Assembly (NCBI GenBank): GCA_002683135.1
Contig: NYSS01000182.1
Location: 14,005 to 78,004, forward strand
Reading direction: 5' to 3'
Origin: Planctomycetota bacterium
GTDB lineage: Bacteria; Planctomycetota; GCA-002687715
Length of the DNA: 64,000 bases
Shown here piece after piece: positions 8,202 through 39,266 of this stretch. Within the stretch, counting starts at the first letter, position 1. Each line of letters opens with the position of its first letter. The notes beneath the pieces were generated by a model. That model had not been told where the DNA came from. It worked only from the letters and a program-made list of their open reading frames with translations, and searched no databases. Position numbers and translations under genes: made by a program.

Positions 8202-9506
8202 TTAGTTGAACTGGTGCCTTGCGACTTCATCGTATTCATAACCATCCATTTCCAAGTCAAATCCGATAGTGACATTCTCAGGAACATTCTGCGTGTATTC
8301 AATATTGAAGTAATCACTATTCTCCTGTGACTCAATTATTTTTGAAGCAACCTTTATGCTCATCTCAGTTACACTATCATCATCCATTTCAGCGAGAAGC
8401 TCAGGTTCAGCAATTAATTGCTCAACAATTTCTGCAGAAGCGGTTGCAAAAAGATAAGGAGACTTCAACGAATTGACGCCTTGCGCCAACCTACTTACTG
8501 TATTTTCGTCAACACCACCGTCCAATATTGATTTTGTAAACTGGGCTATTTGTGGATCTTGAATATTACCTAACAGGGCCTCATCATTTTTCTCTACAGC
8601 ACTGTACATTGCACCCATATCTTTAAAGAGATCTTGTTGACTGTCCGTATAAAAATCTAATGAGCTGACATATGAATTATATACATCGGTGTAGTTCTGA
8701 AGCTCAGACAACATACCATCTTCGATGATCTGCTTAGATGACTCAAAAAAACCCACTGCTTCAGCTTTCGTTTCGATAAACGCGTTATCCATCAGATTTG
8801 CATCGTGTGCAATGTAATCCGTACTGTGAAAAAGTTCGTGCTGAATGATGTTGTATAGCATCGCACCGGTTGTGTATTCATTTAGCTTACCGCTATCCGC
8901 TTCATCCTCTAGGCCGTTAAACAAAGACATCATTCCAGTTTTACTAATTACTGCAATTGGGACCGTATCCTGTTTGCTTTCATCCTGAAGAACAAAAGCG
9001 GCTAAACCTTCCCCCGATTTAAGCGCAGAGTGTTGCTCAGCAAGACTTTCAATATAATCCGCATTATCCTGGCCATTGAAGAATTTTTCATTTTCCAGCT
9101 TATTTACGTCATCGAGAGATTGAACAACTAACACTTTGTTTCCATTTTCATCGATACAAAGGCAGTTTTCATTGAAAAGATCACCCAAGAGGACTGATTC
9201 ACCGGTCTCAAAATCATGATAGCCAGTTTCTTTTTCTAACCAGCTTGCACTTGGGCCTATGTCCGACGATGAGTAACCTTTTAACTCATCCGCGAGTAGA
9301 TTGTAATTTGTTTGAGAGAGTTTAGTTAAATTTGGCGTGTCGAGTTCTGATGTTAAATCATCAATTGCTACCTGAGAATCGACCACTTCGAATTCTATTG
9401 ATTGGAAACCACCAGCGTCAGCACTGTCTATAATTGCGACTTCCTGCGCAAATGCCGTACTGGAAAGAAGGGCCGTAGTAAGTAAAACGTTATTAATTAT
9501 CTTCAT
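8202..9506 (-). CDS. secreted acidic protein with HExxH motif (putative zinc metalloprotease)
   Basis: Signal peptide ending AFAQE; IIQHELFHSTD. Confidence 0.5.
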   Translation of the reverse strand: MKIINNVLLTTALLSSTAFAQEVAIIDSADAGGFQSIEFEVVDSQVAIDDLTSELDTPNLTKLSQTNYNLLADELKGYSSSDIGPSASWLEKETGYHDFETGESVLLGDLFNENCLCIDENGNKVLVVQSLDDVNKLENEKFFNGQDNADYIESLAEQHSALKSGEGLAAFVLQDESKQDTVPIAVISKTGMMSLFNGLEDEADSGKLNEYTTGAMLYNIIQHELFHSTDYIAHDANLMDNAFIETKAEAVGFFESSKQIIEDGMLSELQNYTDVYNSYVSSLDFYTDSQQDLFKDMGAMYSAVEKNDEALLGNIQDPQIAQFTKSILDGGVDENTVSRLAQGVNSLKSPYLFATASAEIVEQLIAEPELLAEMDDDSVTEMSIKVASKIIESQENSDYFNIEYTQNVPENVTIGFDLEMDGYEYDEVARHQFN

Positions 9507-9531
9507 GATCGGCCCTTAATGAATTGATTAT

Positions 9532-9771
9532 TTAAGTGAACAACCCTCTATTAAGGAATTTCCCTTTGAGCAATTCTTCACCATGTTTAATGACAATTTC
9601 GCAAACTTTTTGGTCGGCTAACTTTTTCGAAATAGCCTTATTAGTTAGCTTGAACTTTTCAGAAAATAAGATGAAAGCCTTATTTTTCATTACAACAAGG
9701 ATCTCATCACCAGTAACATCATAAAAAAGTTCTGAGTTCGACTGAAAGTTGAACTCATTCACTTCAAGCAT
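9532..9771 (-). CDS. hypothetical protein (79 aa)
   Basis: The track ORF (to 9891) runs through promoter-like AT-rich DNA containing the TGCATAA/TTATGCA dyad. Internal ATG 9771 with AGAGGA upstream is preferred. Confidence 0.35.
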   Translation of the reverse strand: MLEVNEFNFQSNSELFYDVTGDEILVVMKNKAFILFSEKFKLTNKAISKKLADQKVCEIVIKHGEELLKGKFLNRGLFT

Positions 9772-9918
9772 GAGAAAGATTAATCCTCTTTCTTCTTTAT
9801 ACTTCACATTTTTTATGGTGTGACTTTCTAGTCGTTTCTTGTCCAAATCTATCTCCTTAAATATTATGCATAAATAATAGCACTTATGCAAAAATAAAGT
9901 GACGCGGCTTCTCTTATG

Positions 9919-10254
9919 TCACCCTAACGTTTCTTGAAAACACTTATGCTGCTCGCCGAACACTTCGATATCACCCGCGTTTTCGTAAGACATCATAGCA
10001 ATTCTGAGTGCTATGTTATTTCCACTATGCAACTGATTGTATAACCATCCTACACAATGACTTTTTTCTGTCTCGTGACACGCCATCACCTTCAACTCAG
10101 TGTTTTGCAGTTGCCCTTCAATGTCATTTGGATCTGCAATGGTGCTAATGAGTTCCTTGTGCTTTTCAATGCTGTATCCATTCGGAATATCGTTAGGATT
10201 TACCGCCACTTTCCATGGGCACTTCCGGCATTGTTTTACTCTTTCTAATTTCAT
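9919..10254 (-). CDS. small Cys-rich CPW-motif protein (resembles DUF6283-type partners of MTases)
   Basis: CRKCPW...MACHETEKSHCVGW; ATG 10254 with GGGGG RBS, 6 nt after the MTase stop. Confidence 0.5.
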   Translation of the reverse strand: MKLERVKQCRKCPWKVAVNPNDIPNGYSIEKHKELISTIADPNDIEGQLQNTELKVMACHETEKSHCVGWLYNQLHSGNNIALRIAMMSYENAGDIEVFGEQHKCFQETLG

Positions 10255-10259
10255 TTGAA

Positions 10260-11666
10260 TTACCCCCAAGGAATGTTAAGTCTATCCATGTCGGCTTTAT
10301 TAATTTGCGTTGTGCCGTTGATCGTTCTCATTACTGCTTGTGCTTCGTCACTTGATAGAAATTCGACAAGTGCTTTTCCTTCGACTTCCGACAGTGGCTC
10401 GCCCATTTTATGAATGTACTGTACGTGATTTTCTAAAGCCACTACATCGTCATCTATAGTTGCCCTAGACAACCAGGCTGGCATTAAGCGTTTAGGTTCA
10501 TCGCCATCATTACTAGAAATTCTTTTCAATACTACGTAACCACCTGACGTCGGTAAACTAAGTCTATTCTTACTGTTTGTTTCTAAAAATCGAGGTTTCT
10601 TTTTCTCGCCCCAGGTCCAGTTTCCGGCATTATCAAAGTCAGAAGAATAAACAATTTTTGTTGTAAGGTGACCACTTTGTCGATGTAGCTCAAGTTTACC
10701 CGTACTCAATCTGTATCCGGCATCAGGAAATGTCCTATTGCGCTTCTGATTTTTGAGGTAAAGATGGATATCTTTCACTGTCCTTGGTAGCGACCAATGT
10801 GATTCGTTTAGAATATCTGCTGAAGGCAGCACTAAATCGTATTCAGGCTTAGAGTCTGGATCTTTTGCCACCGTGATACGAATGCGGCCAACCTGCTTAC
10901 GTTTACGTGCATAGAAGAGGATATTTTCTTGTAAAACGTTTTTGAAGCACGAACGAGATTTGTATAGTGTAATGTGTTCAATACTAAGATTTTCCATCAG
11001 AAATTTACGGAAATCCTTAAAATAAGCGCCTGAACAAAAGCTGCGGGGTAACACCGCAAGTAAATGCCCATCATCAGCAACCCATTTAGCGGCTAGCACC
11101 ATAAATGCTGAGTACAAATTGGGTGACGATATACCATGTTTCTTTAGCAATAAAGAAAGAGGTTCTTTACTGCTTAGTTTATTGTAGGGTGGGTTAGTGG
11201 TAATAAAATCCGGTTTCGAAAGCCCGTCAATCTCCCCACGCTCTAATAAACTCTTTGCATGTACCGTGAAATCACTTTGTATTTCGTAGTCAGAATTTGA
11301 TTCTGCTTGAGATGAGAAGAACGACCAAGCTCTACTTAAATCATCATGCAATCTTTGATCTGTTTCAAAGCCGTATATGGAAAAATGTTTCGATAAATTT
11401 TGGTTTTGAAGTCTGCTCGCAAGAGCGGCTGATAGAATACCTGTCCCGGCACCTGGGTCACCTATAACTGATTTTGCTGAAACATTTGGAGAAGACATTA
11501 CAGATAATTGGACTGCCATCGACAATGGCGTGAAATGTTGCCCTCTCAATTTCTTTTCTACAGGGCTCGTTGCATTTCTCCAATAATCACTATTGGAATC
11601 TATTCTTGCTAAGAGTTCAGAGTATTCATCTTTACAGACGCTATTACTGACAAGGTTGTATTTCAC
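10260..11666 (-). CDS. N6-adenine DNA methyltransferase (Eco57I/N6_Mtase-like), orphan
   Basis: Motif I GDPGAGTGIL, motif IV TTNPPY. GTG start 11 nt after the PK leader. No adjacent nuclease. Confidence 0.8.
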   Translation of the reverse strand: MKYNLVSNSVCKDEYSELLARIDSNSDYWRNATSPVEKKLRGQHFTPLSMAVQLSVMSSPNVSAKSVIGDPGAGTGILSAALASRLQNQNLSKHFSIYGFETDQRLHDDLSRAWSFFSSQAESNSDYEIQSDFTVHAKSLLERGEIDGLSKPDFITTNPPYNKLSSKEPLSLLLKKHGISSPNLYSAFMVLAAKWVADDGHLLAVLPRSFCSGAYFKDFRKFLMENLSIEHITLYKSRSCFKNVLQENILFYARKRKQVGRIRITVAKDPDSKPEYDLVLPSADILNESHWSLPRTVKDIHLYLKNQKRNRTFPDAGYRLSTGKLELHRQSGHLTTKIVYSSDFDNAGNWTWGEKKKPRFLETNSKNRLSLPTSGGYVVLKRISSNDGDEPKRLMPAWLSRATIDDDVVALENHVQYIHKMGEPLSEVEGKALVEFLSSDEAQAVMRTINGTTQINKADMDRLNIPWG

Positions 11667-13637: not shown

Positions 13638-13670
13638 TCATTTGTAGAAATTACTTATAATTGTTAATTA

Positions 13671-13692
13671 AAAAGGCGGTTACCGCCTTTTT
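13671..13692 (+). terminator. rho-independent terminator of porin gene
   Basis: AAAAGGCGG-tta-CCGCCTTTTT. Confidence 0.7.
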
Positions 13693-13693
13693 A

Positions 13694-14142
13694 ATTTAAA
13701 ATCACCAAAACGGTGAAACATTTTTATCGATATCCGTGCTACGCACCTCTATCATTTAAAATCACCTAATGCGGTGACTCACTTAGCATGATTAAAGTCT
13801 CTCAAATGTGATTTCTTCTAAATCACCTATGCGGTGACTCACTTTATCGGTATCTTTCACGCTTATTTTTGCAACTTCTAAATCACCTATACGGTGACTC
13901 ACTTAGCATGATTAAAGTCTCTCAAATGTGATTCCTTCTAAATCACCTATGCGGTGAATCACGTGTGCTTTACTTCAGTTAATGAAGGCATGCACTTCTA
14001 AATCACCTATGCGGTGAATCACACGCTTTAGCGTTGAAAGCGTTATCTTTAATTCTTTTAAATCACCTATGCGGTGACTCACGTATTACAATAACTCGCG
14101 ACGCAACGCCGATTCTTCTAAATCACCTATGCGGTGACTCAC
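13694..14142 (-). CRISPR. CRISPR array: 8 repeats (6 canonical 28-nt, 2 degenerate distal) and 7 spacers (six of 32 nt, distal one 33 nt)
   Basis: Canonical repeats end at 13842, 13902, 13962, 14022, 14082 and 14142 (60-nt period). Minus-strand repeat GTGAGTCACCGCATAGGTGATTTAGAAG has type I-F-like architecture. Degenerate repeats 13694-13720 and 13754-13782 lie distal to the AT-rich leader. Confidence 0.95.
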
Positions 14143-14238
14143 TGAAACAAGTTCTCTTATTTTTTAATTAAAATAAAGGGTTAAATAAAAATACGCTAAA
14201 AATCATTATTTTTAACGAAAAAAATAAGTCATTGTTTT
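14143..14238 (-). promoter_or_regulatory. CRISPR leader (AT-rich)
   Basis: 96-nt A/T-rich segment between the csf3 stop and the first canonical repeat. Repeat degeneracy increases away from it. Confidence 0.5.
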
Positions 14239-14940
14239 TTATATTAAATTTACTGGCATATAACAAAGGGTTTTTGTGCCAATATCCCAATAGGGAGGCC
14301 TCAGTGGAGATGATACTGATATATCTCCTTTTTCTTCAAAAGGTTTTACCCGTTTTTTCCACAATTCATTAGCTTCACTACAAACTTCAATCTCAACCTG
14401 CTTGATGAAGCCAAATCCCATACGATGAAGTTTTCCCAAATGAGTAAGGTGCCCGGACGATAAAGCTTCTTCTATAAGCGCTTTGTCACCAATACAATAT
14501 GCTTCCATCTTATCAACATAGGTAATGTTGTGATATACAAGCGCATTACGTTGATGACCGCGGTTAAAATCTAATTGACCAGCATGACTCATCTTCTCTA
14601 ACGAAGCTGCTTGACGCTTTAATTGGATCTGATTGTTCTTCACTGCTGATGCGATAGACGCCTTATCATGCCTGTTTGTATAAAAACGTGATGAATGCGT
14701 TAAATCTCCAACTGGCTGCAGCGCAGAGGCTTTATATATCCAACCTTCGCCGTCACCGTGACGTTCAAATGGTAAATCATCGGCAAGTGCCAGCAGAGCT
14801 TTTCGTGAGTGCGGCTCTTCTAATGTAATCAACCCTTTTTGCGTGTTGATATAAGCGATTAACGCATCCAAATGCAGCGGGTATTTAGGCAGACAAATTG
14901 CGCTACCTAACTCAAATGTAATCTTAAGCGGTTCCATCAT
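14239..14940 (-). CDS. csf3: type IV Cas5-family protein Csf3
   Basis: 233 aa; N-terminal KITFEL...PLHLDALIAYI; last gene before the array, in csf order. Confidence 0.7.
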   Translation of the reverse strand: MMEPLKITFELGSAICLPKYPLHLDALIAYINTQKGLITLEEPHSRKALLALADDLPFERHGDGEGWIYKASALQPVGDLTHSSRFYTNRHDKASIASAVKNNQIQLKRQAASLEKMSHAGQLDFNRGHQRNALVYHNITYVDKMEAYCIGDKALIEEALSSGHLTHLGKLHRMGFGFIKQVEIEVCSEANELWKKRVKPFEEKGDISVSSPLRPPYWDIGTKTLCYMPVNLI

Positions 14941-14943
14941 TGG

Positions 14944-16059
14944 CTACCCTTTTAATTTATCTTTACCACGCTTGATGGCAACTTCACGTGGTGTAAAGTA
15001 ATCAATCATTTCTTCTTTATCGATAGCCTGAATAGCTTCATGCGCTTCGGCAGTCAATGAAGAAAGTGATGTGTAATCAAATGAGAAGTGTTCACCCTGG
15101 TATAGCTCATCAACAATAGTCTCACTAATGTCCAATGCCGGTAAGTCAGCATGAATTGCACTGATTTTGAAGCGACCAAATCCAGTTCGGCCCCAGCCAC
15201 CCAGATAATTAACGTTCGCCAAGTCTTCAAGCGCAACTAATAGAGCGCCAACTTGTGCTTCTGTTAAATCAGGAGAGACATCAATTCTAAAGTGCATATC
15301 AACGCCTGCACAGATTGATTCAACACCCAGTATGTTGCCTAACGTTAGTTTTTTTGCAACATCTTCACCTTTACTCTTCTGGGTTTTACGTTCTTGCTGG
15401 TTCTTCGACACTCCTTCAAGGTAATCTGCAATCGCGCTTTCACCACCCTCTACATTTTGTGTAACATCAACGATGTTATTACCACGAGAAATATCGTCTA
15501 CTTTGATAAAACTACGACGCTCAACGATTTGATAAGGCTGAAGCTGTTTTACATCACCGTCGATTCCAAAGTTTTGCTTCTCTATGATCTCTTGTACTAA
15601 TGCAAGTGGTGCCTGTACTACACCATTTTCCACTGTTGAATTCAGGATCGGATGAATATCACTTACTGCATATCGTGATTCCAACATGCGAGACCCACCA
15701 CCGAATACGCCCATATAAATATGCTCAGATGCGCGTACTAATTCCTCAATCGAAGAGTTAGCCTTGTCTGGTTGCGTATGTGATGACCCAGATTGCAAAG
15801 CAATATGCGTTTCAAGTGATAATTGACCTTGCGTGCTGACCATTGCATCTATTGCTCGCTTTGCAATGTAACGACGGAAACGACCTCGTAAACCATTGGC
15901 CGGGAAGTAAGGAACATTGTTGCCATTAATTCGTTTCTTTACCGTCAATGTTGTGTTGTTCTCATCAGCACCATCTGGGTACGCCACATTCCAATTGCTG
16001 GTGGTTTTCAGGATCACATGAATTGCGTTATTTTGTACGTGGAATTTAGTCATAGTCAT
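14944..16059 (-). CDS. csf2: type IV Cas7-family protein Csf2
   Basis: 371 aa RAMP protein; PANGLRGRFRR and GVFGGGSRM motifs. Confidence 0.8.
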   Translation of the reverse strand: MTMTKFHVQNNAIHVILKTTSNWNVAYPDGADENNTTLTVKKRINGNNVPYFPANGLRGRFRRYIAKRAIDAMVSTQGQLSLETHIALQSGSSHTQPDKANSSIEELVRASEHIYMGVFGGGSRMLESRYAVSDIHPILNSTVENGVVQAPLALVQEIIEKQNFGIDGDVKQLQPYQIVERRSFIKVDDISRGNNIVDVTQNVEGGESAIADYLEGVSKNQQERKTQKSKGEDVAKKLTLGNILGVESICAGVDMHFRIDVSPDLTEAQVGALLVALEDLANVNYLGGWGRTGFGRFKISAIHADLPALDISETIVDELYQGEHFSFDYTSLSSLTAEAHEAIQAIDKEEMIDYFTPREVAIKRGKDKLKG

Positions 16060-16065
16060 TTCCGC

Positions 16066-16839
16066 TTATTTAATATTTGCTGTTCTAACAGGTTCAGGCA
16101 GCTCTAAATTCTCAGTTAGAACGAAATCAAGTGCGTAGGCTTCGCTGCTCGTGAGAGATAAGAGTTGTTTAACATGCGCTTGCATTTCAGGCATGAGTTC
16201 TACGACCTCATTAACCCATTGATAAAGTTCGCTTTGACCAACACGCTGACCTTTCATGTCACAAAATGACAAAGCAGTACGCATTGGTTTCCTTTTAATA
16301 GCTTTTTTGGCGTGCAAAGCTTTGTGCGCTTCAATCAGAGATATAGTTGCTTCAAGACCATCTTGAATTTTCTGTGTTCTAATTTTATGGACATCTTCGC
16401 CGAGTCTAAAGAACACAACATCTTTCGAATAGTTAACGGGTGATCGCCAGGCTACATGCTGAGATTTCGATACTTGAAGATAAAACGTAAAAGGTGGCTC
16501 TGGTGGATTTAAAAACCAGTATCCCCGGTGCACGCGCTTTAAGCATGGATAGAGTCCATCTGCAGTAACGACAGCGCTACCCCATCTAAAGATGAATTCT
16601 TTCTCATCCATGATGGCTGCACAGTGTAGGCAACGATAAGGTGCATGCGGATCAAAAATGACATTTTCGACGGTGAAGGATTTCGTTAGCATCAAAAAAT
16701 CAACCATATCGCCTTCATCATGGGGTTTACCACAAATACCGCAGTGTCCAGTTGTTTCAGCTTCAACACCTTGAGGAAGGGAATCTGCTAAGCCTGCGCC
16801 TTTAATAACGAGTTCTGAGGGATATATTAAATCGGGCAT
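16066..16839 (-). CDS. csf1: type IV Cas8-like protein Csf1 (zinc-finger)
   Basis: 257 aa; HCGICG...CLHCA CxxC pairs; position between cas6 and csf2. Confidence 0.7.
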   Translation of the reverse strand: MPDLIYPSELVIKGAGLADSLPQGVEAETTGHCGICGKPHDEGDMVDFLMLTKSFTVENVIFDPHAPYRCLHCAAIMDEKEFIFRWGSAVVTADGLYPCLKRVHRGYWFLNPPEPPFTFYLQVSKSQHVAWRSPVNYSKDVVFFRLGEDVHKIRTQKIQDGLEATISLIEAHKALHAKKAIKRKPMRTALSFCDMKGQRVGQSELYQWVNEVVELMPEMQAHVKQLLSLTSSEAYALDFVLTENLELPEPVRTANIK

Positions 16840-17531
16840 TGGGTGTGCTTCCCTTTATTAACGAAATAAACAAGGCCATAGCCTCGTGACTGCAAGTGGC
16901 CAGCTTGCCAAATACCTTCAAGTCTTACTTGCATAGCAAATGTTGCTCTTACTTTTGCTACCGCTTTTTGCCCACCGTTTCTAAATTTTACTGATTCACC
17001 GGAACGACGTGATTCCAAGACCATAATATTGAGATCATCATCCGTGAAAGGTGAATCAATAACACCTTTATCAAATGCATCTTCGAACATAGCTATTACA
17101 TGACGCTTCACTAGATCTGCAGCGGATTCAACGACACCGGTTTCAGATTCCCTGCGCTTATCCCGCTGATCAATAAGTCCGGTAAGTCGATAGACATTCG
17201 GCTCATCTGTTAATACAGCTCGCTTATCTTTCTCACCTACACGCGTATCAGGGCTAAAGCCTTTTCCCATGAGAAAACTAATTGCCGGTGCGACAACTTG
17301 AGTTGTCATCAACGGATCGTTATCACTGACAAAGCCAACCCAACCAAGCCCACCAATAAATCGGTTTTCAGGCCGATTACAATTAGTCTTCGTTTCAGTG
17401 AGATAGTTAAACAAACCCGGTTTGCTTTGAAACATCTGCCCATCCAACCCTTTTGCTACTGCCTCACGCATTTCATTAGCATGGATGTATGTACCAGCCG
17501 GGAGGGTGAACTTTACGAATGTCTGTTGCAT
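16827..17531 (-). CDS. cas6: Cas6-family crRNA endoribonuclease (Csf5/Cas6)
   Basis: 234 aa; C-terminal glycine-rich GHLQSRGYGLV loop; first gene of the csf operon. Confidence 0.6.
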   Translation of the reverse strand: MQQTFVKFTLPAGTYIHANEMREAVAKGLDGQMFQSKPGLFNYLTETKTNCNRPENRFIGGLGWVGFVSDNDPLMTTQVVAPAISFLMGKGFSPDTRVGEKDKRAVLTDEPNVYRLTGLIDQRDKRRESETGVVESAADLVKRHVIAMFEDAFDKGVIDSPFTDDDLNIMVLESRRSGESVKFRNGGQKAVAKVRATFAMQVRLEGIWQAGHLQSRGYGLVYFVNKGKHTQCPI

Positions 17532-17608
17532 GTTGCTTGACCATAATTGAAGATTAATCTAAGGTTATTCTCATGAATTTATAAAGTCAACTCCATAGGA
17601 ATGAACTT

Positions 17609-20104
17609 TTGGCTGTTTCAATTAGAATCCCAGAAACATTGACAAAAAACTTGTTTCCAAACACACCATTTGACGAACTAAATGATGCACAAATAACGCA
17701 TACAAAAAAATGTGCGAAGCAATTGATTGAAAGGGCCATTATTGAAAATAAACTACCTGCATCAGTGAGGTTGGAATCAGAAAATGATTTTGTTGGTCAC
17801 CTAACCATTAACATATTGAACAAATACAATAGAGCAATCATTAAGCACGCGAGACAAAATAAAACACCCGAAGCCGTTATCGCACTTGGTTATCTTGTCT
17901 GCGCACTAAATCATGACTGGCATCTTTCACTTATTGAAAATGAAGAAACACGTTTGTCAGATTATTTAAATGCGATGAACTATGAAGTACGCGACGAACA
18001 ACAGCGTTTCTATCGTTTCTTAGATGACACCATCACAAAACAGAAGGTCGGCTTGATTGAAGCAAGCACAGGGGTGGGAAAAAGTCTTGCTATTCTTAGC
18101 CAGGCTAATGAGCGTGCACTTAACGAAAATAAAGTATGCGTGATCTCAACAAACAGCCTTGCCAATATTCAACAATATATTGCTGACTACCGGAACCTCA
18201 CCGCAAAAGACGTGGAGATGTCACCGCTTTATCTCATAATCGGTAGGCAAAATTTTGTTTCTTCGGAACGACTTTTCGCGTGGATCGATTCATGCGAATT
18301 ACCTATTAATAGAGATCGCATCGATGCATGGTTAAATAGGGGAGGGCGTAACGAAAACGAACCTGACTATCTTCCTGCCATGTCATTAGCTTCACTCAAA
18401 GAATGTGAACCAATGGTTATAGATTCAGAAGTAACCCTGAATAGCAATGTCAGTGACAACGATAAAGGATATTTAGCATATCAGGCACAATTTACGCTGT
18501 CACATGATACTCAGCATGCCATATTGCTTGTCACTCATACTATGCTATGCATTGATACAAAGTTTAGGCGTTTACATCAAGATCTAGAGCTTGATGTTAT
18601 CGATGAAATAAAATCGTTACGCGCTGAAGTAGACCGCCGTTTTAAACGCTATGACGAGCTAGAATTAGGTGATAAAAAAGATAAAGCATATGAAGCCTAC
18701 TCAAATGCGCGGTTAGCATACAATGAATGCCGAATGGCTGCACTCAGATCATCCACACCGTCTTTATTGCCAAATTACCAATACTTGTTCGTTGATGAAG
18801 GACATTTACTTGAGAATGCGATGTGTAATGTAACGAGCGAAAACATCTCACTTCGCTCAATAATTCGTGATGTAAAACAGTATTCCGGCACCGGAAAAGC
18901 GACTAAATCAAAAATTTCAGAAGCAGAGAACGCAATAACTGAATTAATTGACTCGCAACAAAAAATAAAAACTGAACAATTAGTCTTATCTAATCAAACT
19001 GAACATCATAATTATTTGCTCCATACAATATGCAGTGCACTTATCGGGAATACAAAAAAAGCTAAAATCGATGCCCCGTGGCGAGAACAATTAATTGCAT
19101 TAAAGGCGTCTCTGAATCGAATTGGTAAGCGTAATTTCGCATGTATACTTTCATTTTCGCCAGTACGACACTATCCGCAAATCAATACCGGGGAAACCAA
19201 TACATTAGGTTACCTTAGTGATATATGGGCACGGGCAGAAGCGGTAGCAATCGTTTCTGCAACGTTATACATCAAACGCTATAACACCTATAGCTCCAAC
19301 TATATATCAAACATCCTTGGGATCTCTAGACAACGCCGTATCGAGTACCCTCCAATTGTTGCTAAGTGGACAAAAGACATTGTAAAAACAGTCTACATGC
19401 CACCAGCTGATAAGCAGCTATCTGATGATCTCACACCAGTTGGAAGAAGCTTCAGAGGGAATGAAACGGAAAGGTCAGAAAAGAAAAGCAGGTGGGATAA
19501 CGCCATCGCAGAAAGGATCGTTAATGTCTACACCAACGCGCCGGGTGGCACACTTGTGTTAATGACGGCTTATGCTGATTGCATTGCGGTTTCTGAGATT
19601 ATTAAAAGAAAGTTGACTGATATCCCTTTAGTTGTGGCCAACAACAATACAACATTGAATGATCAGAAAATCCAATACATTGAGCTAACTAAGTCTGGGA
19701 CCAAACCCTTGTGGTTAGCTGTCGGTAACGCATGGGTAGGTTTGGATATAAACGGTAAAAGTATCGGATTAGGGCATGAAGATATATTTGAAAAGGACAA
19801 TGTTATAACTGATCTAGTTATCCCTAAGATCCCTTTTGGCGCCAACAACTCCTTGTCGCACATCCTACGAATGATGAAGCTCGATAACAATACAAGCGAT
19901 ATTGAACTCATGGAAACCATGATGAAGTTTAAGCAGGGACTAGGCAGGTTGGTTCGACTTGAGCAGCAAAGACCTAATCGCCAGATTCACATACTTGACG
20001 GAAGACTAAACCAGCCGCGATATAAAGGTTTCTTGTCTCTCATCAGGGCCCTGATTGATACTTATCCAAACGTTTTGTCTATGGATTACGATGACAATAG
20101 ATAG
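17609..20104 (+). CDS. dinG: type IV-A DinG-family helicase (Csf4)
   Basis: 831 aa; Walker A EASTGVGKS; DEAH-like FVDEGH; motif VI QGLGRLVR. TTG start with AGGA RBS. Divergent from the csf operon. Confidence 0.8.
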   Translation: MAVSIRIPETLTKNLFPNTPFDELNDAQITHTKKCAKQLIERAIIENKLPASVRLESENDFVGHLTINILNKYNRAIIKHARQNKTPEAVIALGYLVCALNHDWHLSLIENEETRLSDYLNAMNYEVRDEQQRFYRFLDDTITKQKVGLIEASTGVGKSLAILSQANERALNENKVCVISTNSLANIQQYIADYRNLTAKDVEMSPLYLIIGRQNFVSSERLFAWIDSCELPINRDRIDAWLNRGGRNENEPDYLPAMSLASLKECEPMVIDSEVTLNSNVSDNDKGYLAYQAQFTLSHDTQHAILLVTHTMLCIDTKFRRLHQDLELDVIDEIKSLRAEVDRRFKRYDELELGDKKDKAYEAYSNARLAYNECRMAALRSSTPSLLPNYQYLFVDEGHLLENAMCNVTSENISLRSIIRDVKQYSGTGKATKSKISEAENAITELIDSQQKIKTEQLVLSNQTEHHNYLLHTICSALIGNTKKAKIDAPWREQLIALKASLNRIGKRNFACILSFSPVRHYPQINTGETNTLGYLSDIWARAEAVAIVSATLYIKRYNTYSSNYISNILGISRQRRIEYPPIVAKWTKDIVKTVYMPPADKQLSDDLTPVGRSFRGNETERSEKKSRWDNAIAERIVNVYTNAPGGTLVLMTAYADCIAVSEIIKRKLTDIPLVVANNNTTLNDQKIQYIELTKSGTKPLWLAVGNAWVGLDINGKSIGLGHEDIFEKDNVITDLVIPKIPFGANNSLSHILRMMKLDNNTSDIELMETMMKFKQGLGRLVRLEQQRPNRQIHILDGRLNQPRYKGFLSLIRALIDTYPNVLSMDYDDNR

Positions 20105-20221: not shown

Positions 20222-22012
20222 ATGTTCTCAATCAAGAAGACAAAACTTCATAAAGCACTGGCACATGCATTAGGCAACCTTGAAGCGCTAACTAAGCGCT
20301 TAAAAGTCATGCAAGAAAGCCCGGACAGCCCACGCAAAAAAATTGTTATTTCTACTAAAGAGCTTTACGTATCATCACTTGGTGAAGGCACTAAAATGGT
20401 GGTAGAAGCACATAGTGACAAGTCTGCGCTCTTTATTCGACCAGCAACATTGTCTGACGGGAAAACACGTGTTGTATCTAAGCGTACCTATAAGAACCGT
20501 GATTACGTCGAGCCTGTTGTTGACATTCGTCACCAGCGCGACATTAATGCCACCATCGGTGATGCTGAATACGTACATGTAACGTTTCAAAAAGACGGAG
20601 CATGGGTTCGACCAGCAACCAAATATCAAGAAATCGCGCTTAAGCATCCATCAGGTGCTCACTTTGATATGACCATGCCAGATGAAGAGGGCCTTTACTC
20701 GCAGATATTAAAGGCGATTAAAATCACAAAGCAATCACACTTTTCATCAATCATCCTAAATACCTCTGATGATTTCTTACATTCAAAGGAATATGTCATT
20801 TTATGTGTGCAATTACGCCGACTCGGTTTCGATATCAAAGAAACAAACAACCTTGTATACGCTAAGCTCCCGCGCTCACCTGAGTTAGATAGTCACGAAT
20901 ATATCGATTTAGCGAGATACAACTACAAAACCAGCTTCCAGAGCATGGCCACACGCTTTAACTTCAATGAGCCGCTATCTACCTTTGCCGCATGTACTGC
21001 TGGCGTTGATATTCATGCCATGGAGAACGAAGGTTTTAAAACCACCAGCATTCTCGAATACCGTCCACCTGAGAAGCGTGATTTTAAAAAATCAGTTGAT
21101 AAAGTATCGGGTGAAACGGTGATCAAACACAACGACAAAACCGATACAGGTGCATTGTGCGCACTGTTAAACAGTAAGCATGCAAAAGTGGTATTCAACG
21201 AAGATATCTATGAGTTTGATTTTTATCGAGTCAGTCATTTATTGCCTGATTTCAATCATTTACATATAAGTGTGCAATGTGATGACTTTACTAATATGAA
21301 ATCTAATTCGTTAAAAGATAATAGCATTGACGATTTAAGTACAACCATTGACATGTTCATCCCAGCCCTTGAATTAGCGGACATGACAAACACGCCGACT
21401 ATGCTGGTGGAGAATGTAGTGAACTTCGGCAAATCAATTGAATGTCGCTTACTCTCCACTGGATTAAAGTGGTTGGGGCATGAAGTAAAAACGCATAATT
21501 ATAATGCTGCTGACTTTAATGGCATGACTAAGCGTGTACGTACTTACCTATTTTCTTCACAATTAGGTTTAGATGACATCAAAGCAACACCAGTAGCTCG
21601 ACGAGCCCATGCATGGAATGATGTTATTGCCCCTCGGTTAAATGAACTGCGCGACGTAACGCACTGCAAAACCATTCAGAAGGGCATTGATACCGGCCGT
21701 ATTCGTGTTATCAACGTGGGTGATGCTATTGTGCCAACTATTGTGAAATCACAATCTAGACAGGTGAAAGACAGCGTGTATGTCTACATGAATGGACGCT
21801 ATTACATGCCATCAAATGACATGCTAAAAGCGCTGATGGGCATTCCTGCTGATTTTAATACCGCGCCATTTAGCGAAGAAATTACGAGCGAAATCACAGG
21901 GCAGAGCATTGAATACCCGATGCATCAAGCTATTTGCGAAAAGGTTAAACAGCACATCTACCGGTTCGTGAAATCGTTTTTTGGCCTAAATATGTTAACC
22001 GTGCAGGCCTGA
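20222..22012 (+). CDS. DNA cytosine-5 methyltransferase-like protein with ~240-aa N-terminal extension
   Basis: C5-MTase motif order is recognisable: I FAACTAGVD, IV SVQCDDFT (QC instead of PC), VI LVENV, VIII KRVRTY, X GQSIEYP. Confidence 0.45.
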   Translation: MFSIKKTKLHKALAHALGNLEALTKRLKVMQESPDSPRKKIVISTKELYVSSLGEGTKMVVEAHSDKSALFIRPATLSDGKTRVVSKRTYKNRDYVEPVVDIRHQRDINATIGDAEYVHVTFQKDGAWVRPATKYQEIALKHPSGAHFDMTMPDEEGLYSQILKAIKITKQSHFSSIILNTSDDFLHSKEYVILCVQLRRLGFDIKETNNLVYAKLPRSPELDSHEYIDLARYNYKTSFQSMATRFNFNEPLSTFAACTAGVDIHAMENEGFKTTSILEYRPPEKRDFKKSVDKVSGETVIKHNDKTDTGALCALLNSKHAKVVFNEDIYEFDFYRVSHLLPDFNHLHISVQCDDFTNMKSNSLKDNSIDDLSTTIDMFIPALELADMTNTPTMLVENVVNFGKSIECRLLSTGLKWLGHEVKTHNYNAADFNGMTKRVRTYLFSSQLGLDDIKATPVARRAHAWNDVIAPRLNELRDVTHCKTIQKGIDTGRIRVINVGDAIVPTIVKSQSRQVKDSVYVYMNGRYYMPSNDMLKALMGIPADFNTAPFSEEITSEITGQSIEYPMHQAICEKVKQHIYRFVKSFFGLNMLTVQA

Positions 22013-24504: not shown

Positions 24505-25212
24505 ATGTCAATACTACATCATCAAGCCATCAAGCACGCACTCTCTCACTTCAATTTAACTTACCTTCAAGAACACAATATCCTTTTTGGTGGAGGTACC
24601 AGAATCGCTCTTGATTTAGACGAATACAGAACGTCTATTGATATTGATTTTCTTTGTCCAAACAAAAAGAGTTATCGAGCTGTACGAACACAAGTCAGTT
24701 CTAATTCTTTGGGCGAACTTGTTGCCAGTCCTTTAACTTTCCTGCGCGAAATAAGGTCTGATAGAGATGCTGTTCGCACTTTCATTAAATCTAATGGCTG
24801 TAATATCAAATTAGAATTCGTATCTTTTGATAATTACAATCTTCAAGCAGAAGTTCAGCCTAAATGGAATGTGCCCATCATAGATGTAAACAGCTGCTTT
24901 ATTACTAAGTTGCTTGCTAATGCGGATCGCTTTCGCGAGCCCGTGAAAAAAGATATCGTCGATCTCATCAAGATGTACGAGGCCTGGGGCGAACCTAATA
25001 ATCTTGTCTGGGATGAAGTTGATTCACACTACGGTAGTGCTGGATATAACAGTCTACGTGATGCACTTAACGCAATTGCAAACGATCCACTTTGTTTAGA
25101 AAAAACCTTTGACGTATGCGAAATAAACCACTCTGAGTCAAATAACATTATTGCACTCGCTACAGAATGGAACGAGCTTATTGAGGGAAGTGAAAACTTT
25201 TTCACTCCTTAA
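24505..25212 (+). CDS. AbiEii/AbiGii-family nucleotidyltransferase (type IV TA toxin-like)
   Basis: FGGGTRIALDLDEYRTSIDIDFLC matches the DUF1814/AbiEii NTase signature. Confidence 0.65.
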   Translation: MSILHHQAIKHALSHFNLTYLQEHNILFGGGTRIALDLDEYRTSIDIDFLCPNKKSYRAVRTQVSSNSLGELVASPLTFLREIRSDRDAVRTFIKSNGCNIKLEFVSFDNYNLQAEVQPKWNVPIIDVNSCFITKLLANADRFREPVKKDIVDLIKMYEAWGEPNNLVWDEVDSHYGSAGYNSLRDALNAIANDPLCLEKTFDVCEINHSESNNIIALATEWNELIEGSENFFTP

Positions 25213-35961: not shown

Positions 35962-36657
35962 GTGCACTCGATGACTAATAACCTTAAGCTTTCACATAGT
36001 GAATTTAAAAAACTAACTCAAACGTTAATAGCCATTCATAAACAGGCGCTCAATGAAGAGGATACTTTGCTTATTAAAAAAGCTGAATCATTAGGGTACG
36101 TGGCTAATAACGAATATACAAAAGCCGGGTACAATGCATTAATCTTTAGCAACCAAATGAAGCAGCCATCCGCAACGTTTGTTACACAAGACGGTTATAC
36201 CCTTACGCGAAAAAACGAATCACCAGCCTGTTGGACAGATGACGATCTAACATTCGTCGTAGACGAAGATACGGGCTTACCTATGGGTCATGATGAAGAG
36301 CCACTTGAAGGGAAACTAACGCTTAATCTTCCTTTCGTACTCAATGTAGATAACGAAAAGCTCAATATGCAATTCATCATTACAAAAATCGTAGACTGGC
36401 ATGAGCATCACTTTCCTACCTGGGATCTGGTGGTTGATGAAAGTACGGAAGAAAAACTAAACAAATACACTGACAAAGTGTTTTTAACGGAGTTGATTGC
36501 TTGTTTCAGTGCACCTGACTACGGTTTGACTGCAGACATAGAGCTAGGGAAAGACCATATTAATTACCAGGCGAATTACACCATTACAACTGTAGATCCC
36601 GCTTTAAATGATCTTCTCAACATTGCCCCTGAACAGGGACTCACTATGACAATGTAA
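35962..36657 (+). CDS. hypothetical protein (231 aa)
   Basis: Track ORF with a GTG start; ATG 35971 is an alternative. Confidence 0.5.
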   Translation: MHSMTNNLKLSHSEFKKLTQTLIAIHKQALNEEDTLLIKKAESLGYVANNEYTKAGYNALIFSNQMKQPSATFVTQDGYTLTRKNESPACWTDDDLTFVVDEDTGLPMGHDEEPLEGKLTLNLPFVLNVDNEKLNMQFIITKIVDWHEHHFPTWDLVVDESTEEKLNKYTDKVFLTELIACFSAPDYGLTADIELGKDHINYQANYTITTVDPALNDLLNIAPEQGLTMTM

Positions 36658-36675
36658 TGCGCCATGAGGTGTCAT

Positions 36676-36712
36676 AAAAAGCATGCTGCAGGCGATGTAG
36701 CATGCTTTTTTT
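36676..36712. terminator. bidirectional rho-independent terminator
   Basis: AAAAAGCATGCT-loop-AGCATGCTTTTTT between convergent genes. Confidence 0.75.
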
Positions 36713-36720
36713 GTTATATA

Positions 36721-37323
36721 TTAGGCTGCGCTTTTCTTGGATAAGTAATCATCCAACAAAGGGTGTTCGACTTGTAAGTGTTCAGATACACAATAAGTAG
36801 AAATAGCCGTTGGTATGTGGGCAGTGATTTTAGACACAAACAATGCCTTATTCTCAAAACTTTCCAATACAGCATAGCCTTCGTTCTGATATAAGGCAGC
36901 TACACGATGTTCTAAAAGCCAAAAGTTCATCGCACTTTCAACGTATTCATCTTTGAAAACCACATGATCAACATGCTTAGCGACGTAGTGCAACACACTG
37001 GCGTTTCTATTCATCCTGAAGCCATCTTCAGAAAACACAGTATCTTTACTATAAACCTCTTCGGCGTTAACCAATATTGGCTCTTTACTGACGTAAAAAA
37101 TGGATTTAGATACAGGGGTAATGAACTGCTTGACTGCAAGACCATTACAAACTTGGGTCAAATCGATACCTGGCTCGTGATAAGAAACCTCAATGACAAA
37201 AACATCACAATGATGCGCAATACACTTCAATGCCGGAACCAAACCCGTCTCGTTCTTACTTTCTAAATAGGTTTTTACTGCATTTATACCGACATCAATT
37301 GTCGATCTTAATACCATTCCCAT
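36721..37323 (-). CDS. hypothetical protein (200 aa)
   Basis: Track ORF. Confidence 0.55.
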   Translation of the reverse strand: MGMVLRSTIDVGINAVKTYLESKNETGLVPALKCIAHHCDVFVIEVSYHEPGIDLTQVCNGLAVKQFITPVSKSIFYVSKEPILVNAEEVYSKDTVFSEDGFRMNRNASVLHYVAKHVDHVVFKDEYVESAMNFWLLEHRVAALYQNEGYAVLESFENKALFVSKITAHIPTAISTYCVSEHLQVEHPLLDDYLSKKSAA

Positions 37324-37425
37324 AACTCTCTCGCTTAATGAACTAATTGCAAAATGAATAACTAATATGCAGCATAATGACTGTTTTTAATCATGTAAAG
37401 TTGCGTCTTCAAATGCGACTCAGAT

Positions 37426-37761
37426 TTACGTAGATAGCGCCTCTTTTTTATATATGTAGGCCGCACCTATACCAAGAGGGTGAACCGTCCAGATTAAAAT
37501 TGATAAAGCACTTACGACATATGCAGCAACATAATTCACCGTTTGACTATAAAAAGGCATGACATGCTCTATAGCGGGTAAGAGAACTGCTTTGATAGGG
37601 ACGCTGATTGACACAAGTGCAAGTAAAAGCGCACTCATCATTAAAAGTTGACTCTCAGCGAAACATTTCTCGGTGCTAAACGCTCTTCGAATTGTAATAA
37701 ATCCACAAATCCACCCAGTGATAGTAAACAAACAGAATAAAATTATCTGAACCATTTCCAT
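37426..37761 (-). CDS. membrane protein (111 aa)
   Basis: Track ORF; three hydrophobic segments. Confidence 0.55.
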   Translation of the reverse strand: MEMVQIILFCLFTITGWICGFITIRRAFSTEKCFAESQLLMMSALLLALVSISVPIKAVLLPAIEHVMPFYSQTVNYVAAYVVSALSILIWTVHPLGIGAAYIYKKEALST

Positions 37762-37773
37762 ATTTTCACCCTG

Positions 37774-37911
37774 TTATATTTTTCTTAAAAATACATCACC
37801 AGCTAACACTAACATCAACAGAAACAGGACAGCAAAAGTTATAGCAATAAAAAATAATGTCAGAAACTCACCTGGATTTTTTGATACCCATTCATCAATT
37901 TTTTTAAACAT
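37774..37911 (-). CDS. small membrane protein (45 aa), absent from ORF track
   Basis: ATG 37911; MFKKIDEWVSKNPGEFLTLFFIAITFAVLFLLMLVLAGDVFLRKI. Its stop lies 12 nt before the next start. Confidence 0.4.
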   Translation of the reverse strand: MFKKIDEWVSKNPGEFLTLFFIAITFAVLFLLMLVLAGDVFLRKI

Positions 37912-37983
37912 GTTATCCACTACTACCTGTTGTTAATACTAAAAAAACACATACGCATAAGACACTTCAAAATAAAGATTAAT

Positions 37984-38229: not shown

Positions 38230-38309
38230 GTTGGTTTCCAACCCCTGAACTAGACCGAGGTGCGTCTTTAGATGTAATTTATATTAATTTGTGTGCGCAC
38301 ATAAGTCAA
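38230..38309 (-). promoter_or_regulatory. class-A promoter/operator + PK leader (minus strand)
   Basis: AGTCAA 38304-38309 (= -35 TTGACT), GTGCGCAC 38293-38300, ATATTA 38281-38286. S2 GAGGT 38257-38261/ACCCC 38241-38245. Confidence 0.8.
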
Positions 38310-38373
38310 TGTGAATTTTATTATGCAGTAACGCGAATGAGGCTAAGTTATCAAGTACAATTGCTGCAACGGA

Positions 38374-39246: not shown

Positions 39247-39266
39247 GGAAATATTCTCTGTGAAAT

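What the first reader, a model, noticed from the sequence alone, without database searches (positions are those of the whole stretch)
13694..20104. Type IV-A CRISPR-Cas locus with divergently oriented dinG, I-F-like repeats and no adaptation genes
The cas6/csf5-csf1-csf2-csf3 genes (17531 to 14239, minus strand) are followed by an AT-rich leader and an array. dinG/csf4 (17609..20104) is transcribed divergently from a 77-bp shared intergenic region. In the type IV-A loci I recall, dinG is co-oriented with the csf genes. The repeat GTGAGTCACCGCATAGGTGATTTAGAAG keeps the type I-F layout: 28 nt, a 5-bp stem, a 5-nt loop and a ...AGAAG 3' handle. This fits reliance on a host I-F Cas1/Cas2-3 for spacer uptake. 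Type IV-A systems are known to be carried by plasmids and ICEs and to act by DinG-dependent interference or silencing of competing elements. That supports a mobile-element origin for this window.
Basis: partly seen in the sequence, partly recalled or inferred. Interest (0 to 1): 0.7.

Follow-up and report, generated by a model that had tools for sequence, protein, structure and literature searches.

The report
Ordinary plasmid-borne type IV-A1 CRISPR-Cas

Summary
csf5-csf1-csf2-csf3 (17531-14239, minus), an AT-rich leader, a CRISPR array (14142-13694) and a divergent csf4/dinG (17609-20104) are all present. All five proteins pass NCBIfam equivalog cut-offs, and PADLOC places them in subtype IV-A1. 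The window is collinear with Alteromonas megaplasmids pKD01 (97% identity) and pAMRG65-300 (93.5%). RefSeq already annotates the same locus there, and a 2017 paper reported it.

In 24 of 25 plasmids holding homologues of both genes, csf4 and csf2 lie head-to-head, and the same holds in all 11 metagenomic relatives.

The type I-F link is supported. Repeats are 28 nt, spacers 32 nt, and the hairpin shows compensatory changes in relatives. All 4 distinct protospacers found carry a 5'-CC PAM (chance about 3e-6). No adaptation genes occur in the window or in 72 kb of pKD01.

Related plasmids share the trailer end of the array but differ in every leader-proximal spacer, which indicates polarized acquisition. 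Spacer 1 matches pAMDE1-family conjugative plasmids perfectly. Spacer 3 matches the start of an early-region gene of a temperate phage.

Verdict: a known system and a correct call, with the novelty claim refuted. Low to moderate interest.

The parts
17609..20104 (+). csf4 / CasDinG helicase (831 aa, TTG start)
   Evidence: It scores 580 bits on TIGR03117 (cut-off 400), aligned over residues 1-820. The best PADLOC model is Csf4_1_IVA1 at 559 bits. It has Walker A GVGKS at residue 155 and DEGH at 396, with no HNH or other nuclease domain found. The closest solved structures are the P. oleovorans IV-A1 DinG (8RFJ) and P. aeruginosa CasDinG (8E2W, 7XEX).
17532..17608 (.). 77-bp divergent control region between csf5 and csf4
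   Evidence: This is direct sequence. Two oppositely oriented TTGAC hexamers lie at 17537-17541 on the plus strand and 17590-17586 on the minus strand. They are conserved between the Alteromonas loci and Vibrio pVPS91, whose Csf4 is 36% identical. The simple sigma-70 scan found no full promoter here, so the promoter assignment is inference.
16827..17531 (-). csf5 (Cas6-family crRNA endonuclease, 234 aa)
   Evidence: It scores 208 bits on NF045575 cas6_csf5 (cut-off 150). PADLOC assigns Cas6_2_IVA1.
16066..16839 (-). csf1 (Cas8-like large subunit, 257 aa)
   Evidence: It scores 169 bits on TIGR03114 (cut-off 140). It has two CxxC motifs at residues 33 and 70, which form the zinc finger.
14944..16059 (-). 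csf2 (Cas7 backbone subunit, 371 aa)
   Evidence: It scores 298 bits on TIGR03115 (cut-off 130) and also hits Pfam RAMPs. The closest solved structures are 8RC3 and 7XFZ.
14239..14940 (-). csf3 (Cas5, 233 aa)
   Evidence: It scores 211 bits on TIGR03116 (cut-off 140). The exact protein is present in 123 blocks of public assemblies, including Tara Oceans contigs.
14143..14238 (-). AT-rich CRISPR leader (17.7% GC)
   Evidence: The last 40 nt before the first repeat are identical in pKD01 and different in pRG65. A promoter-like site lies at 14232-14205 on the minus strand.
13694..14142 (-). CRISPR array: 6 intact 28-nt repeats, 6 spacers of 32 nt, then 2 degenerate repeats flanking one ancestral 33-nt spacer
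   Evidence: The trailer end is shared with pKD01 and pRG65, while every leader-proximal spacer differs. The whole array is identical in two Tara Oceans contigs.
14083..14114 (-). Spacer 1: 32/32 match to pAMDE1-family conjugative plasmids of Alteromonas mediterranea, 5'-CC PAM
   Evidence: The protospacer is at NC_019394 116026-116057, inside the hypothetical gene WP_015068645.1.
13963..13994 (-). Spacer 3: 31-32/32 match to six IMG/VR viral contigs, 5'-CC PAM in five
   Evidence: The protospacer covers the ribosome-binding site and ATG of a 145-aa ORF. That ORF precedes a CII-like activator and an integrase, opposite a regulator gene.
13783..13934 (-). Spacers 4 and 6 (13934-13903, 13814-13783): near-duplicates that differ only at nucleotide 1 (G vs A), with spacer 5 between them
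   Evidence: No target was found.
13670..13692 (.). Hairpin terminator closing the array (AAAAAGGCGGTAACCGCCTTTTT), usable from either side
   Evidence: This is direct sequence. It is conserved in pKD01 and pRG65.

Best explanation

Inferred mechanism, by homology to the studied Pseudomonas and Klebsiella systems:
1. The array is transcribed from the leader on the minus strand.
2. Csf5 cuts each repeat at its hairpin.
3. Csf1, several copies of Csf2, Csf3 and Csf5 assemble on the crRNA.
4. The complex binds double-stranded DNA that carries a 5'-CC PAM and forms an R-loop.
5. It recruits the CasDinG helicase, which is expressed from the opposite strand of a shared 77-bp control region.
6. The helicase silences transcription or replication of the target without cutting it.

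Shown here: the targets include a competing conjugative plasmid family (pAMDE1) and the early control region of a temperate phage.

New spacers are most probably inserted at the leader end by a type I-F Cas1-Cas2/3 supplied in trans by the host chromosome. The locus has no adaptation genes, yet it has I-F-type repeats, 32-nt spacers and a CC PAM.
For: Identity: all five genes pass NCBIfam equivalog cut-offs, and the best PADLOC models are IV-A1. RefSeq annotates the same five genes in pKD01 and pAMRG65-300. PMC5217437 reports a type IV system lacking Cas1/Cas2 in pAMRG65-300.

Intactness: Csf4 has Walker A and DEGH motifs and no nuclease domain was found. Csf1 has a double CxxC.

Hairpin: the fold has z = -5.9. 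Two stem pairs change on both sides in a metagenomic relative, 96.7% of cells are paired, and no slid register comes close.

Active, polarized acquisition: the degenerate repeats, the ancestral spacer and the terminator are shared by three plasmids that are 93-97% identical, while all 5-7 leader-proximal spacers differ.

Targets: spacer 1 matches four pAMDE1-family conjugative plasmids 32/32. Spacer 3 matches six viral contigs with 0-1 mismatch, over the ribosome-binding site and ATG of an early-region gene.

PAM: wS1, wS3, pKD01 S3 and pKD01 S5 all have CC immediately 5' of the protospacer. The CC frequency in the targets is 0.037-0.046, which gives about 3e-6 for 4 of 4. CC is the established type I-F PAM (textbook knowledge).

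Literature: IV-A1 co-occurs with I-F (P = 3.7e-17) and their repeats co-cluster (PMC7038947). In-trans acquisition has been shown for IV-A3 with I-E. DinG is needed to block transcription that has already started (bioRxiv 10.1101/2023.06.23.546257; PMC11519345). Chromosomal I-F systems exist in Alteromonas strains that carry a type IV chromid (PMC5217437).
Against: No expression, crRNA or interference data exist for this system, so every mechanistic step is by homology (25-36% identity to the studied CasDinG proteins).

The helper I-F system was not observed. The window's host is unknown. The single scan of GTDB species representatives with the repeat core found no Alteromonas genome. It found only Psychrobacter arrays, whose cas genes, if any, lie outside the 8-kb stretches returned.

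Four of the six unique window spacers have no known target. Two of the four PAM-bearing protospacers have 4 mismatches to their spacers. The array is identical in the two Tara Oceans contigs examined, so acquisition is not frequent in this lineage.
Confidence: 0.85

Rival explanations
1. The divergent dinG marks a distinct IV-A variant, with the helicase uncoupled from the effector operon and a different regulation or function.
For: dinG is on the opposite strand, 77 bp from csf5. One plasmid locus, from Geoalkalibacter, has all five genes co-oriented, so both layouts exist.
Against: The head-to-head layout is the rule. It is seen in 24 of 25 PLSDB records and in 10 of 12 annotated loci opened, from Vibrio, Citrobacter, Azospira, Burkholderia, Aromatoleum and Pseudomonas. 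All 11 metagenomic relatives have it as well. The gap is similarly short in most of these loci (78-121 bp).
Confidence: 0.03
2. The locus is an inactive relic: the genes and array are carried passively and no longer interfere with anything.
For: The array is short (6 spacers) and ends in two decayed repeats. It is identical in the two Tara Oceans contigs examined. Several repeats carry point changes. Most spacers have no target.
Against: All five ORFs are full length and align end to end with their family profiles. The helicase and zinc-finger motifs are intact. The spacer sets differ completely between plasmids that are 93-97% identical. Two spacers match extant mobile elements perfectly, with the right PAM. 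One viral contig with a perfect match carries TC instead of CC, as expected for escape from an active system.
Confidence: 0.08
3. Spacers are not supplied by a type I-F module. Instead they come from another adaptation system (for example I-E Cas1-Cas2, as in IV-A3), or the arrays change only by recombination with other arrays.
For: More distant IV-A1 relatives carry their own cas1, with or without a Cas2 of the CT1978 (I-E) type, directly after csf3. The pRG65 array has a different leader and a different repeat variant in its five newest units, which points to recombination. No I-F genes were seen in any sequence examined.
Against: The relatives that have their own cas1 also have 29-nt, GC-rich, I-E-like repeats with a period of 61. 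This lineage has 28-nt repeats, a period of 60, an AGAAG 3' end and a CC PAM in 4 of 4 cases, not the AAG of I-E. The polarized pattern, with a shared trailer and variable leader end, fits integrase-driven insertion.
Confidence: 0.12
4. Some spacers regulate host or plasmid genes by self-targeting, as in Pseudomonas oleovorans, rather than defending against competitors.
For: Four of the six unique spacers have no match in the plasmid, phage or viral collections. IV-A1 silencing of a chromosomal gene is documented (PMC11551745 abstract).
Against: No spacer matches elsewhere in the 64-kb window with up to 6 mismatches. The two spacers that do have targets hit foreign elements. Alteromonas chromosomes could not be searched.
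Confidence: 0.1

Closest known systems
Type IV CRISPR-Cas loci of Alteromonas plasmids pKD01 (NZ_CP147979) and pAMRG65-300 (NZ_CP018030; reported in PMC5217437)
   Same: The five genes, their order and orientation, the leader position, the repeat family, the trailer end of the array and the flanking genes are the same. DNA identity is 96.9% and 93.5%.
   Different: Every leader-proximal spacer differs. pRG65 also has a different leader-proximal sequence and repeat variant (GTGTGTCACCGCGTAGG...).
Type IV-A1 model systems: Aromatoleum aromaticum EbN1 plasmid 1, Pseudomonas aeruginosa and Pseudomonas oleovorans (structures 7XEX-7XG4, 8E2W, 8RC3, 8RFJ)
   Same: The gene set is the same, and so is the csf4 | csf5-csf1-csf2-csf3-array layout in the EbN1 and P. 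aeruginosa plasmid loci opened. The best PADLOC models are IV-A1. CasDinG has no nuclease domain.
   Different: Csf4 identity is only 25-29%. The Pseudomonas CasDinG is about 100 aa shorter. The other IV-A1 arrays read in PLSDB (Vibrio, Citrobacter, Burkholderia and two Pseudomonas plasmids) have GC-rich, I-E-like repeats with a period of 60-61, whereas this one has a 28-nt I-F-like repeat and a CC PAM.
Type IV-A3 of Klebsiella pneumoniae plasmids (bioRxiv 10.1101/2023.06.23.546257)
   Same: It is a plasmid-borne, nuclease-free system with DinG-dependent silencing. It has no adaptation genes, and its repeats and PAM match a host type I system that supplies Cas1-Cas2 in trans.
   Different: Its helper is I-E (AAG PAM), not I-F, and its Cas6 is of the I-E type. 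The proteins are too distant to be found by tblastn with this Csf4 or Csf2. The in-trans step has been shown experimentally there and is only inferred here.
Type I-F CRISPR arrays
   Same: Shared features are the 28-nt repeat, 32-nt spacers, a 5-bp stem with a 5-nt loop, 8 nt after the stem ending in AGAA, and a 5'-CC PAM. The core TCACCGCATAGGTGATTTAGAA is identical to that of large Psychrobacter arrays.
   Different: There is no Cas1, Cas2/3, Csy1-3 or Cas6f here. Processing is by a Csf5-type enzyme, not Cas6f. The Psychrobacter arrays could not be typed, because no cas genes lie in the stretches returned.

Membership tests
Type IV-A (subtype IV-A1) CRISPR-Cas | Core effector genes csf1 (Cas8-like), csf2 (Cas7) and csf3 (Cas5) | tested here: met
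   TIGR03114 scores 169 bits, TIGR03115 298 bits and TIGR03116 211 bits, all above the equivalog cut-offs. The PADLOC type IV models agree.
Type IV-A (subtype IV-A1) CRISPR-Cas | Subtype signature gene dinG/csf4 | tested here: met
   TIGR03117 scores 580 bits (cut-off 400) as a full-length match, and PADLOC Csf4_1_IVA1 scores 559 bits. Scores on the housekeeping DinG and YoaA models are far below their cut-offs.
Type IV-A (subtype IV-A1) CRISPR-Cas | Csf5-type Cas6 endonuclease (IV-A1), rather than Cas6f-like (IV-A2) or Cas6e-like (IV-A3) | tested here: met
   NF045575 cas6_csf5 scores 208 bits (cut-off 150), and the best PADLOC model is Cas6_2_IVA1. The variant definitions come from PMC7038947.
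Type IV-A (subtype IV-A1) CRISPR-Cas | Adjacent CRISPR array with a hairpin-forming repeat | tested here: met
   There are 6 intact and 2 degenerate repeats directly after csf3. The hairpin fold has z = -5.9 and shows compensatory changes.
Type IV-A (subtype IV-A1) CRISPR-Cas | No adaptation module and no effector nuclease | tested here: met
   There are no cas1, cas2 or cas3 in the window or in the collinear 72 kb of pKD01. No HNH or HD domain was found in Csf4.
Type IV-A (subtype IV-A1) CRISPR-Cas | Carried by a plasmid or similar element, with spacers aimed at other mobile elements | tested here: met
   55 of the 64 kb are collinear with pKD01. Spacer 1 targets conjugative plasmids and spacer 3 targets a temperate phage.
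Type IV-A (subtype IV-A1) CRISPR-Cas | crRNA-guided, DinG-dependent interference without target cleavage | not testable with these tools
   This needs RNA sequencing and interference assays. It is inferred from homologues (PMC11519345; bioRxiv 10.1101/2023.06.23.546257).
Arrays serviced by a type I-F adaptation module | 28-nt repeat, 32-nt spacers and the I-F hairpin/handle layout | tested here: met
   
Arrays serviced by a type I-F adaptation module | 5'-CC protospacer-adjacent motif | tested here: met
   All 4 distinct protospacers have it, with a chance probability of about 3e-6. The sample is small, and two of the matches have 4 mismatches.
Arrays serviced by a type I-F adaptation module | A I-F cas1-cas2/3 in the same cell | not testable with these tools
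   The host chromosome is not available. The literature reports chromosomal I-F in A. mediterranea CP48/CP49 and A. australica DE170. The GTDB scan with the repeat core found no Alteromonas array.
Arrays serviced by a type I-F adaptation module | Leader-end (polarized) insertion of new spacers | tested here: met
   The trailer end is shared and all leader-proximal spacers are private in the three related plasmids. This is comparative evidence, not experimental.

The most novel reading that the evidence does not exclude
The marine (Alteromonas-type) branch of IV-A1 may have switched its whole guide module from an I-E-like to an I-F-like format. That module comprises the repeat and leader, the hairpin specificity of Csf5 and the PAM specificity of Csf1/Csf3. 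The switch would let the system use the I-F adaptation machinery of its hosts.

Separately, near-duplicate spacers recur in these small arrays: the window, pRG65 and one metagenomic relative each hold a pair that differs by 1-2 bases. These may record repeated re-acquisition of the same protospacer from escape variants. That would imply a priming-like bias in a system with no nuclease.
Probability: 0.2. Interest if true: 0.5.

Novelty: already known. Interest (0 to 1): 0.22.

Why it matters
The finding matters mostly as a correction. The trait that made it look special, the divergent dinG, is the default architecture of IV-A1, so it should not be carried forward as a new variant.

What remains useful is modest but concrete:
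- It is a natural IV-A1 system with I-F-type repeats and a consistent CC PAM.
- Comparative evidence shows leader-end spacer turnover between sister plasmids.
- It has identifiable targets: a rival conjugative plasmid family of the same genus, and the early switch region of a temperate phage.

This makes the Alteromonas plasmids a convenient, environmentally abundant test case (the exact Csf3 is present in 123 assembly blocks). They could be used to test whether I-F Cas1-Cas2/3 can feed a type IV array in trans. That has been shown only for I-E with IV-A3.

Tried and rejected
- Repeat pattern in JGI metagenome contigs: no hit.
- Spacer 4/6 core in JGI metagenomes and IMG/VR: no hit.
- Spacers 2 and 5 in IMG/VR: no hit.
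- All 17 unique spacers of the three plasmids against INPHARED phages: no match.
- Scan of GTDB representative genomes with the repeat core, meant to find an Alteromonas I-F array: it returned only Psychrobacter arrays plus single chance-like hits. The stretches around the Psychrobacter arrays hold an integrase, HrpA, an aminotransferase and unnamed proteins, but no cas genes, so their type stays unproven.
- Function of the plasmid target gene WP_015068645.1: no Pfam or PHROG family.
- Promoters in the 77-bp region: the consensus scan found none. Only two conserved TTGAC hexamers were seen by alignment.
- Leader comparison with the Psychrobacter array and with Vibrio: no meaningful similarity.
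- tblastn with Csf4 or Csf2 does not reach Klebsiella IV-A3, so the orientation tally speaks for IV-A1 and a few IV-A2-like loci only.
- Literature search for the repeat sequence: nothing.
- I considered and rejected the idea that the 596-aa gene after csf4 is an accessory gene of the system. It is absent from the 87%, 55% and 52% identity relatives and from all other IV-A1 loci opened.

Full report

Yes. On the minus strand, four ORFs run head to tail at 17531-16827, 16839-16066, 16059-14944 and 14940-14239. An 831-aa ORF starts 77 bp away on the plus strand at 17609-20104.

Downstream of the last minus-strand gene lies a 96-bp leader with 17.7% GC, against 39.6% for the window. The repeat GTGAGTCACCGCATAGGTGATTTAGAAG then occurs six times with 0-1 mismatch at a 60-nt period. 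No shuffle gave any match.

Two decayed repeats (13782-13754 and 13720-13694) and a hairpin terminator (13692-13670) close the array. The repeat RNA folds into the stated 5-bp stem with a 5-nt loop. The minimum-energy fold extends the stem through G-U pairs (z = -5.9).

**2. What is it?**

All five proteins pass the NCBIfam equivalog cut-offs for Csf5, Csf1, Csf2, Csf3 and Csf4. The best PADLOC models are the IV-A1 ones.

- Csf4 has Walker A (GVGKS) and DEGH motifs, and no nuclease domain was found.
- Csf1 has two CxxC motifs.
- The closest solved structures are the IV-A1 complexes of Pseudomonas oleovorans and P. aeruginosa.

The locus is 96.9% identical to plasmid pKD01 of Alteromonas macleodii and 93.5% identical to pAMRG65-300 of A. 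mediterranea. RefSeq already names the same five genes in both. 55 of the 64 kb of the window are collinear with pKD01. A 2017 study of Alteromonas plasmids had already reported a type IV system without Cas1/Cas2 in pAMRG65-300 (PMC5217437).

The exact Csf3 protein is present in 123 blocks of public assemblies. Two Tara Oceans contigs carry an identical array. The window is therefore from a widespread marine megaplasmid lineage.

**3. The divergent dinG**

- tblastn of the window's Csf4 and Csf2 against 72,556 plasmids found 25 records with both genes. In 24 of them the two genes lie head-to-head; only Geoalkalibacter is co-oriented.
- I opened 12 annotated loci. Ten show exactly csf4 | csf5-csf1-csf2-csf3. 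They are the two Alteromonas plasmids, Vibrio pVPS91, a Citrobacter IncC plasmid, Azospira, Burkholderia, Aromatoleum aromaticum EbN1, P. alcaligenes and two P. aeruginosa plasmids. The gaps are 78-121 bp in most.
- Rhodoferax has a rearranged locus that includes casE and cas1e.
- All eleven metagenomic relatives fetched through Csf3 homologues are divergent too.

Two oppositely oriented TTGAC hexamers in the 77-bp region are conserved between Alteromonas and Vibrio. They may be the -35 elements of overlapping divergent promoters. This is inference, because the consensus scan found no full promoter.

**4. The type I-F link**

*Repeat format across relatives.* Within the marine branch (Csf3 at least 52% identical), the repeats keep GTG at the 5' end and TTTAGAAG at the 3' end, while the stem changes by compensatory substitutions. 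The stems are TCACC/GGTGA here, a 6-bp AATCGT/ACGATT stem in L027 (whose TCGT/ACGA core lies in the same register as the stem here), and ATCGC/GCGAT in L035.

By contrast, other IV-A1 loci (Vibrio, Citrobacter, Burkholderia, Pseudomonas) have GC-rich, I-E-like repeats, mostly with a 61-nt period. Two distant metagenomic relatives with such repeats even carry their own cas1, and one also carries a Cas2 of the CT1978 type, right after csf3.

*PAM.* Four distinct protospacers were found:

| Spacer | Target | Match | 5' flank |
|---|---|---|---|
| Window spacer 1 | pAMDE1 | 32/32 | CC |
| pKD01 spacer 5 | pAMDE1, about 760 bp away | 28/32 | CC |
| Window spacer 3 | Six IMG/VR contigs | 31-32/32 | CC in five, TC in one |
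| pKD01 spacer 3 | One of those contigs | 28/32 | CC |

CC immediately precedes all four. With a CC frequency of about 0.04 in the targets, the chance of this is roughly 3e-6. CC is the established I-F PAM.

*Literature.* Pinilla-Redondo et al. reported IV-A1/I-F co-occurrence and repeat co-clustering, but could not derive a IV-A1 PAM (PMC7038947).

*What is missing.* The helper system itself was not seen.

**5. Evidence that the array is, or recently was, active**

The three sister plasmids share the two decayed repeats, the 33-nt spacer between them and the terminator. Every spacer nearer the leader is private to one plasmid. This is the classic signature of leader-end acquisition after the plasmids diverged.

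The targets make biological sense.

- Spacer 1 lies in a hypothetical gene of the conjugative pAMDE1 family (MOBP, MPF_I), which lives in the same genus. pKD01 spacer 5 lies just upstream of the same gene.
- Spacer 3 covers the ribosome-binding site and start codon of the first gene of an operon. That operon continues with a CII-like activator and an integrase, opposite a regulator gene. This is the early switch region of a temperate phage, and a sensible place for a system that silences rather than cuts.
- One viral contig with a perfect protospacer has TC instead of CC, which may be a PAM escape.

**6. Mechanism**

These steps are inferred from the studied homologues (PMC11519345; bioRxiv 10.1101/2023.06.23.546257):

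1. The array is transcribed from the leader.
2. Csf5 cuts at the hairpin.
3. The Csf1-Csf2-Csf3-Csf5 complex with its crRNA recognises CC-flanked DNA and forms an R-loop.
4. CasDinG is recruited to the displaced strand and blocks transcription or replication without cleavage.

None of these steps was tested here.

**7. Comparison and verdict**

The locus meets every sequence-level criterion of type IV-A1 (see the membership table). It is a close relative of loci that are already annotated and published, so I rate it as already known.

The small additions are:
- the CC PAM;
- polarized spacer turnover;
- the identity of two targets;
- the observation that the marine branch uses I-F-format repeats, while its nearest plasmid relatives use I-E-format repeats.

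Interest is low to moderate (0.22). The most novel reading still open is a wholesale switch of the guide module between helper systems, together with re-acquisition of escape variants as the origin of the near-duplicate spacers. It would deserve about 0.5 if true, and I give it about 0.2.

Noticed in passing
window 13934-13903 and 13814-13783; L002 8337-8306 and 8277-8246; L027 about 8890-9110: Near-duplicate spacers recur in these short arrays. In the window, S4 and S6 differ only at nucleotide 1, with G in the newer copy and A in the older. In pRG65, S5 and S6 show the same G/A difference at nucleotide 1. A metagenomic relative has a pair that differs by 2 bases. Similar pairs occur in the Citrobacter and P. 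aeruginosa DN1 IV-A1 arrays, and none among 28 Psychrobacter spacers. In the window the repeats flanking the two copies differ, which argues against a simple block duplication.
   Followed up: partly
L002 8606-8723 and repeats 8605-8338 (pAMRG65-300): The pRG65 array is a hybrid. Its leader-proximal sequence and its five newest repeats (GTGTGTCACCGCGTAGG...) differ from its older repeats and from the window and pKD01. This suggests the leader end was replaced by recombination with another array.
   Followed up: partly
L030 5010-4979 (IMGVR_UViG_3300048881_000490): One viral contig has a perfect 32/32 match to window spacer 3 but TC instead of CC at the PAM position. It is a candidate PAM-escape variant.
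   Followed up: no
L039 10751-11966; L040 10756-11863; L041 9556-10663: Distant IV-A1 relatives (Csf3 35-41% identical) carry their own cas1 directly after csf3. Two of them also carry a Cas2 of the CT1978 type, and both lineages have I-E-like repeats. L039 also has an AcrVA2-like gene about 3 kb from dinG.
   Followed up: partly
L014 6795-8000 and L015 1-743 (Psychrobacter urativorans); L016 7711-7978: These are large arrays with at least 27 repeats of CTTCATCACCGCATAGGTGATTTAGAAA. Their hairpin and 3' part are identical to the window's repeat. They lie next to a tyrosine integrase, with no cas gene in the 8-kb stretches returned, so they may be isolated I-F arrays on an island.
   Followed up: partly
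window 20222-22012 (+): A 596-aa ORF lies 118 bp after csf4 on the same strand and is conserved in pKD01, pRG65 and the Tara Oceans contigs. It matches C5 cytosine methyltransferases only weakly, over residues 313-456 (Pfam 24 bits; NCBIfam below cut-off). It is annotated as a DNA cytosine methyltransferase in pRG65 and as hypothetical in pKD01. It is absent next to csf4 in more distant relatives.
   Followed up: partly
L003 19810-21426 (pAMDE1, NC_019394 115835-117451): Two different plasmids' arrays target the same spot of pAMDE1. The spot is a 277-aa gene with no family, plus the 780-bp non-coding region upstream of it. That region contains several GGTGAGT-like repeats and might be a replication or control region.
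   Followed up: no
window 8202-11666 (-), 24505-25212 (+), 58647-59721 (-): Other defence or addiction genes lie near the locus. They include an N6 adenine methyltransferase of the Eco57I type next to a DUF6283 gene, an AbiEii/AbiGii-family toxin (named in pKD01), and a RES-Xre toxin-antitoxin pair (named in pKD01).
   Followed up: no
window 36628-39700: The window and pKD01 differ in this segment. pKD01 has a group II intron reverse transcriptase there, while the window has about 3 kb of unrelated small ORFs.
   Followed up: no
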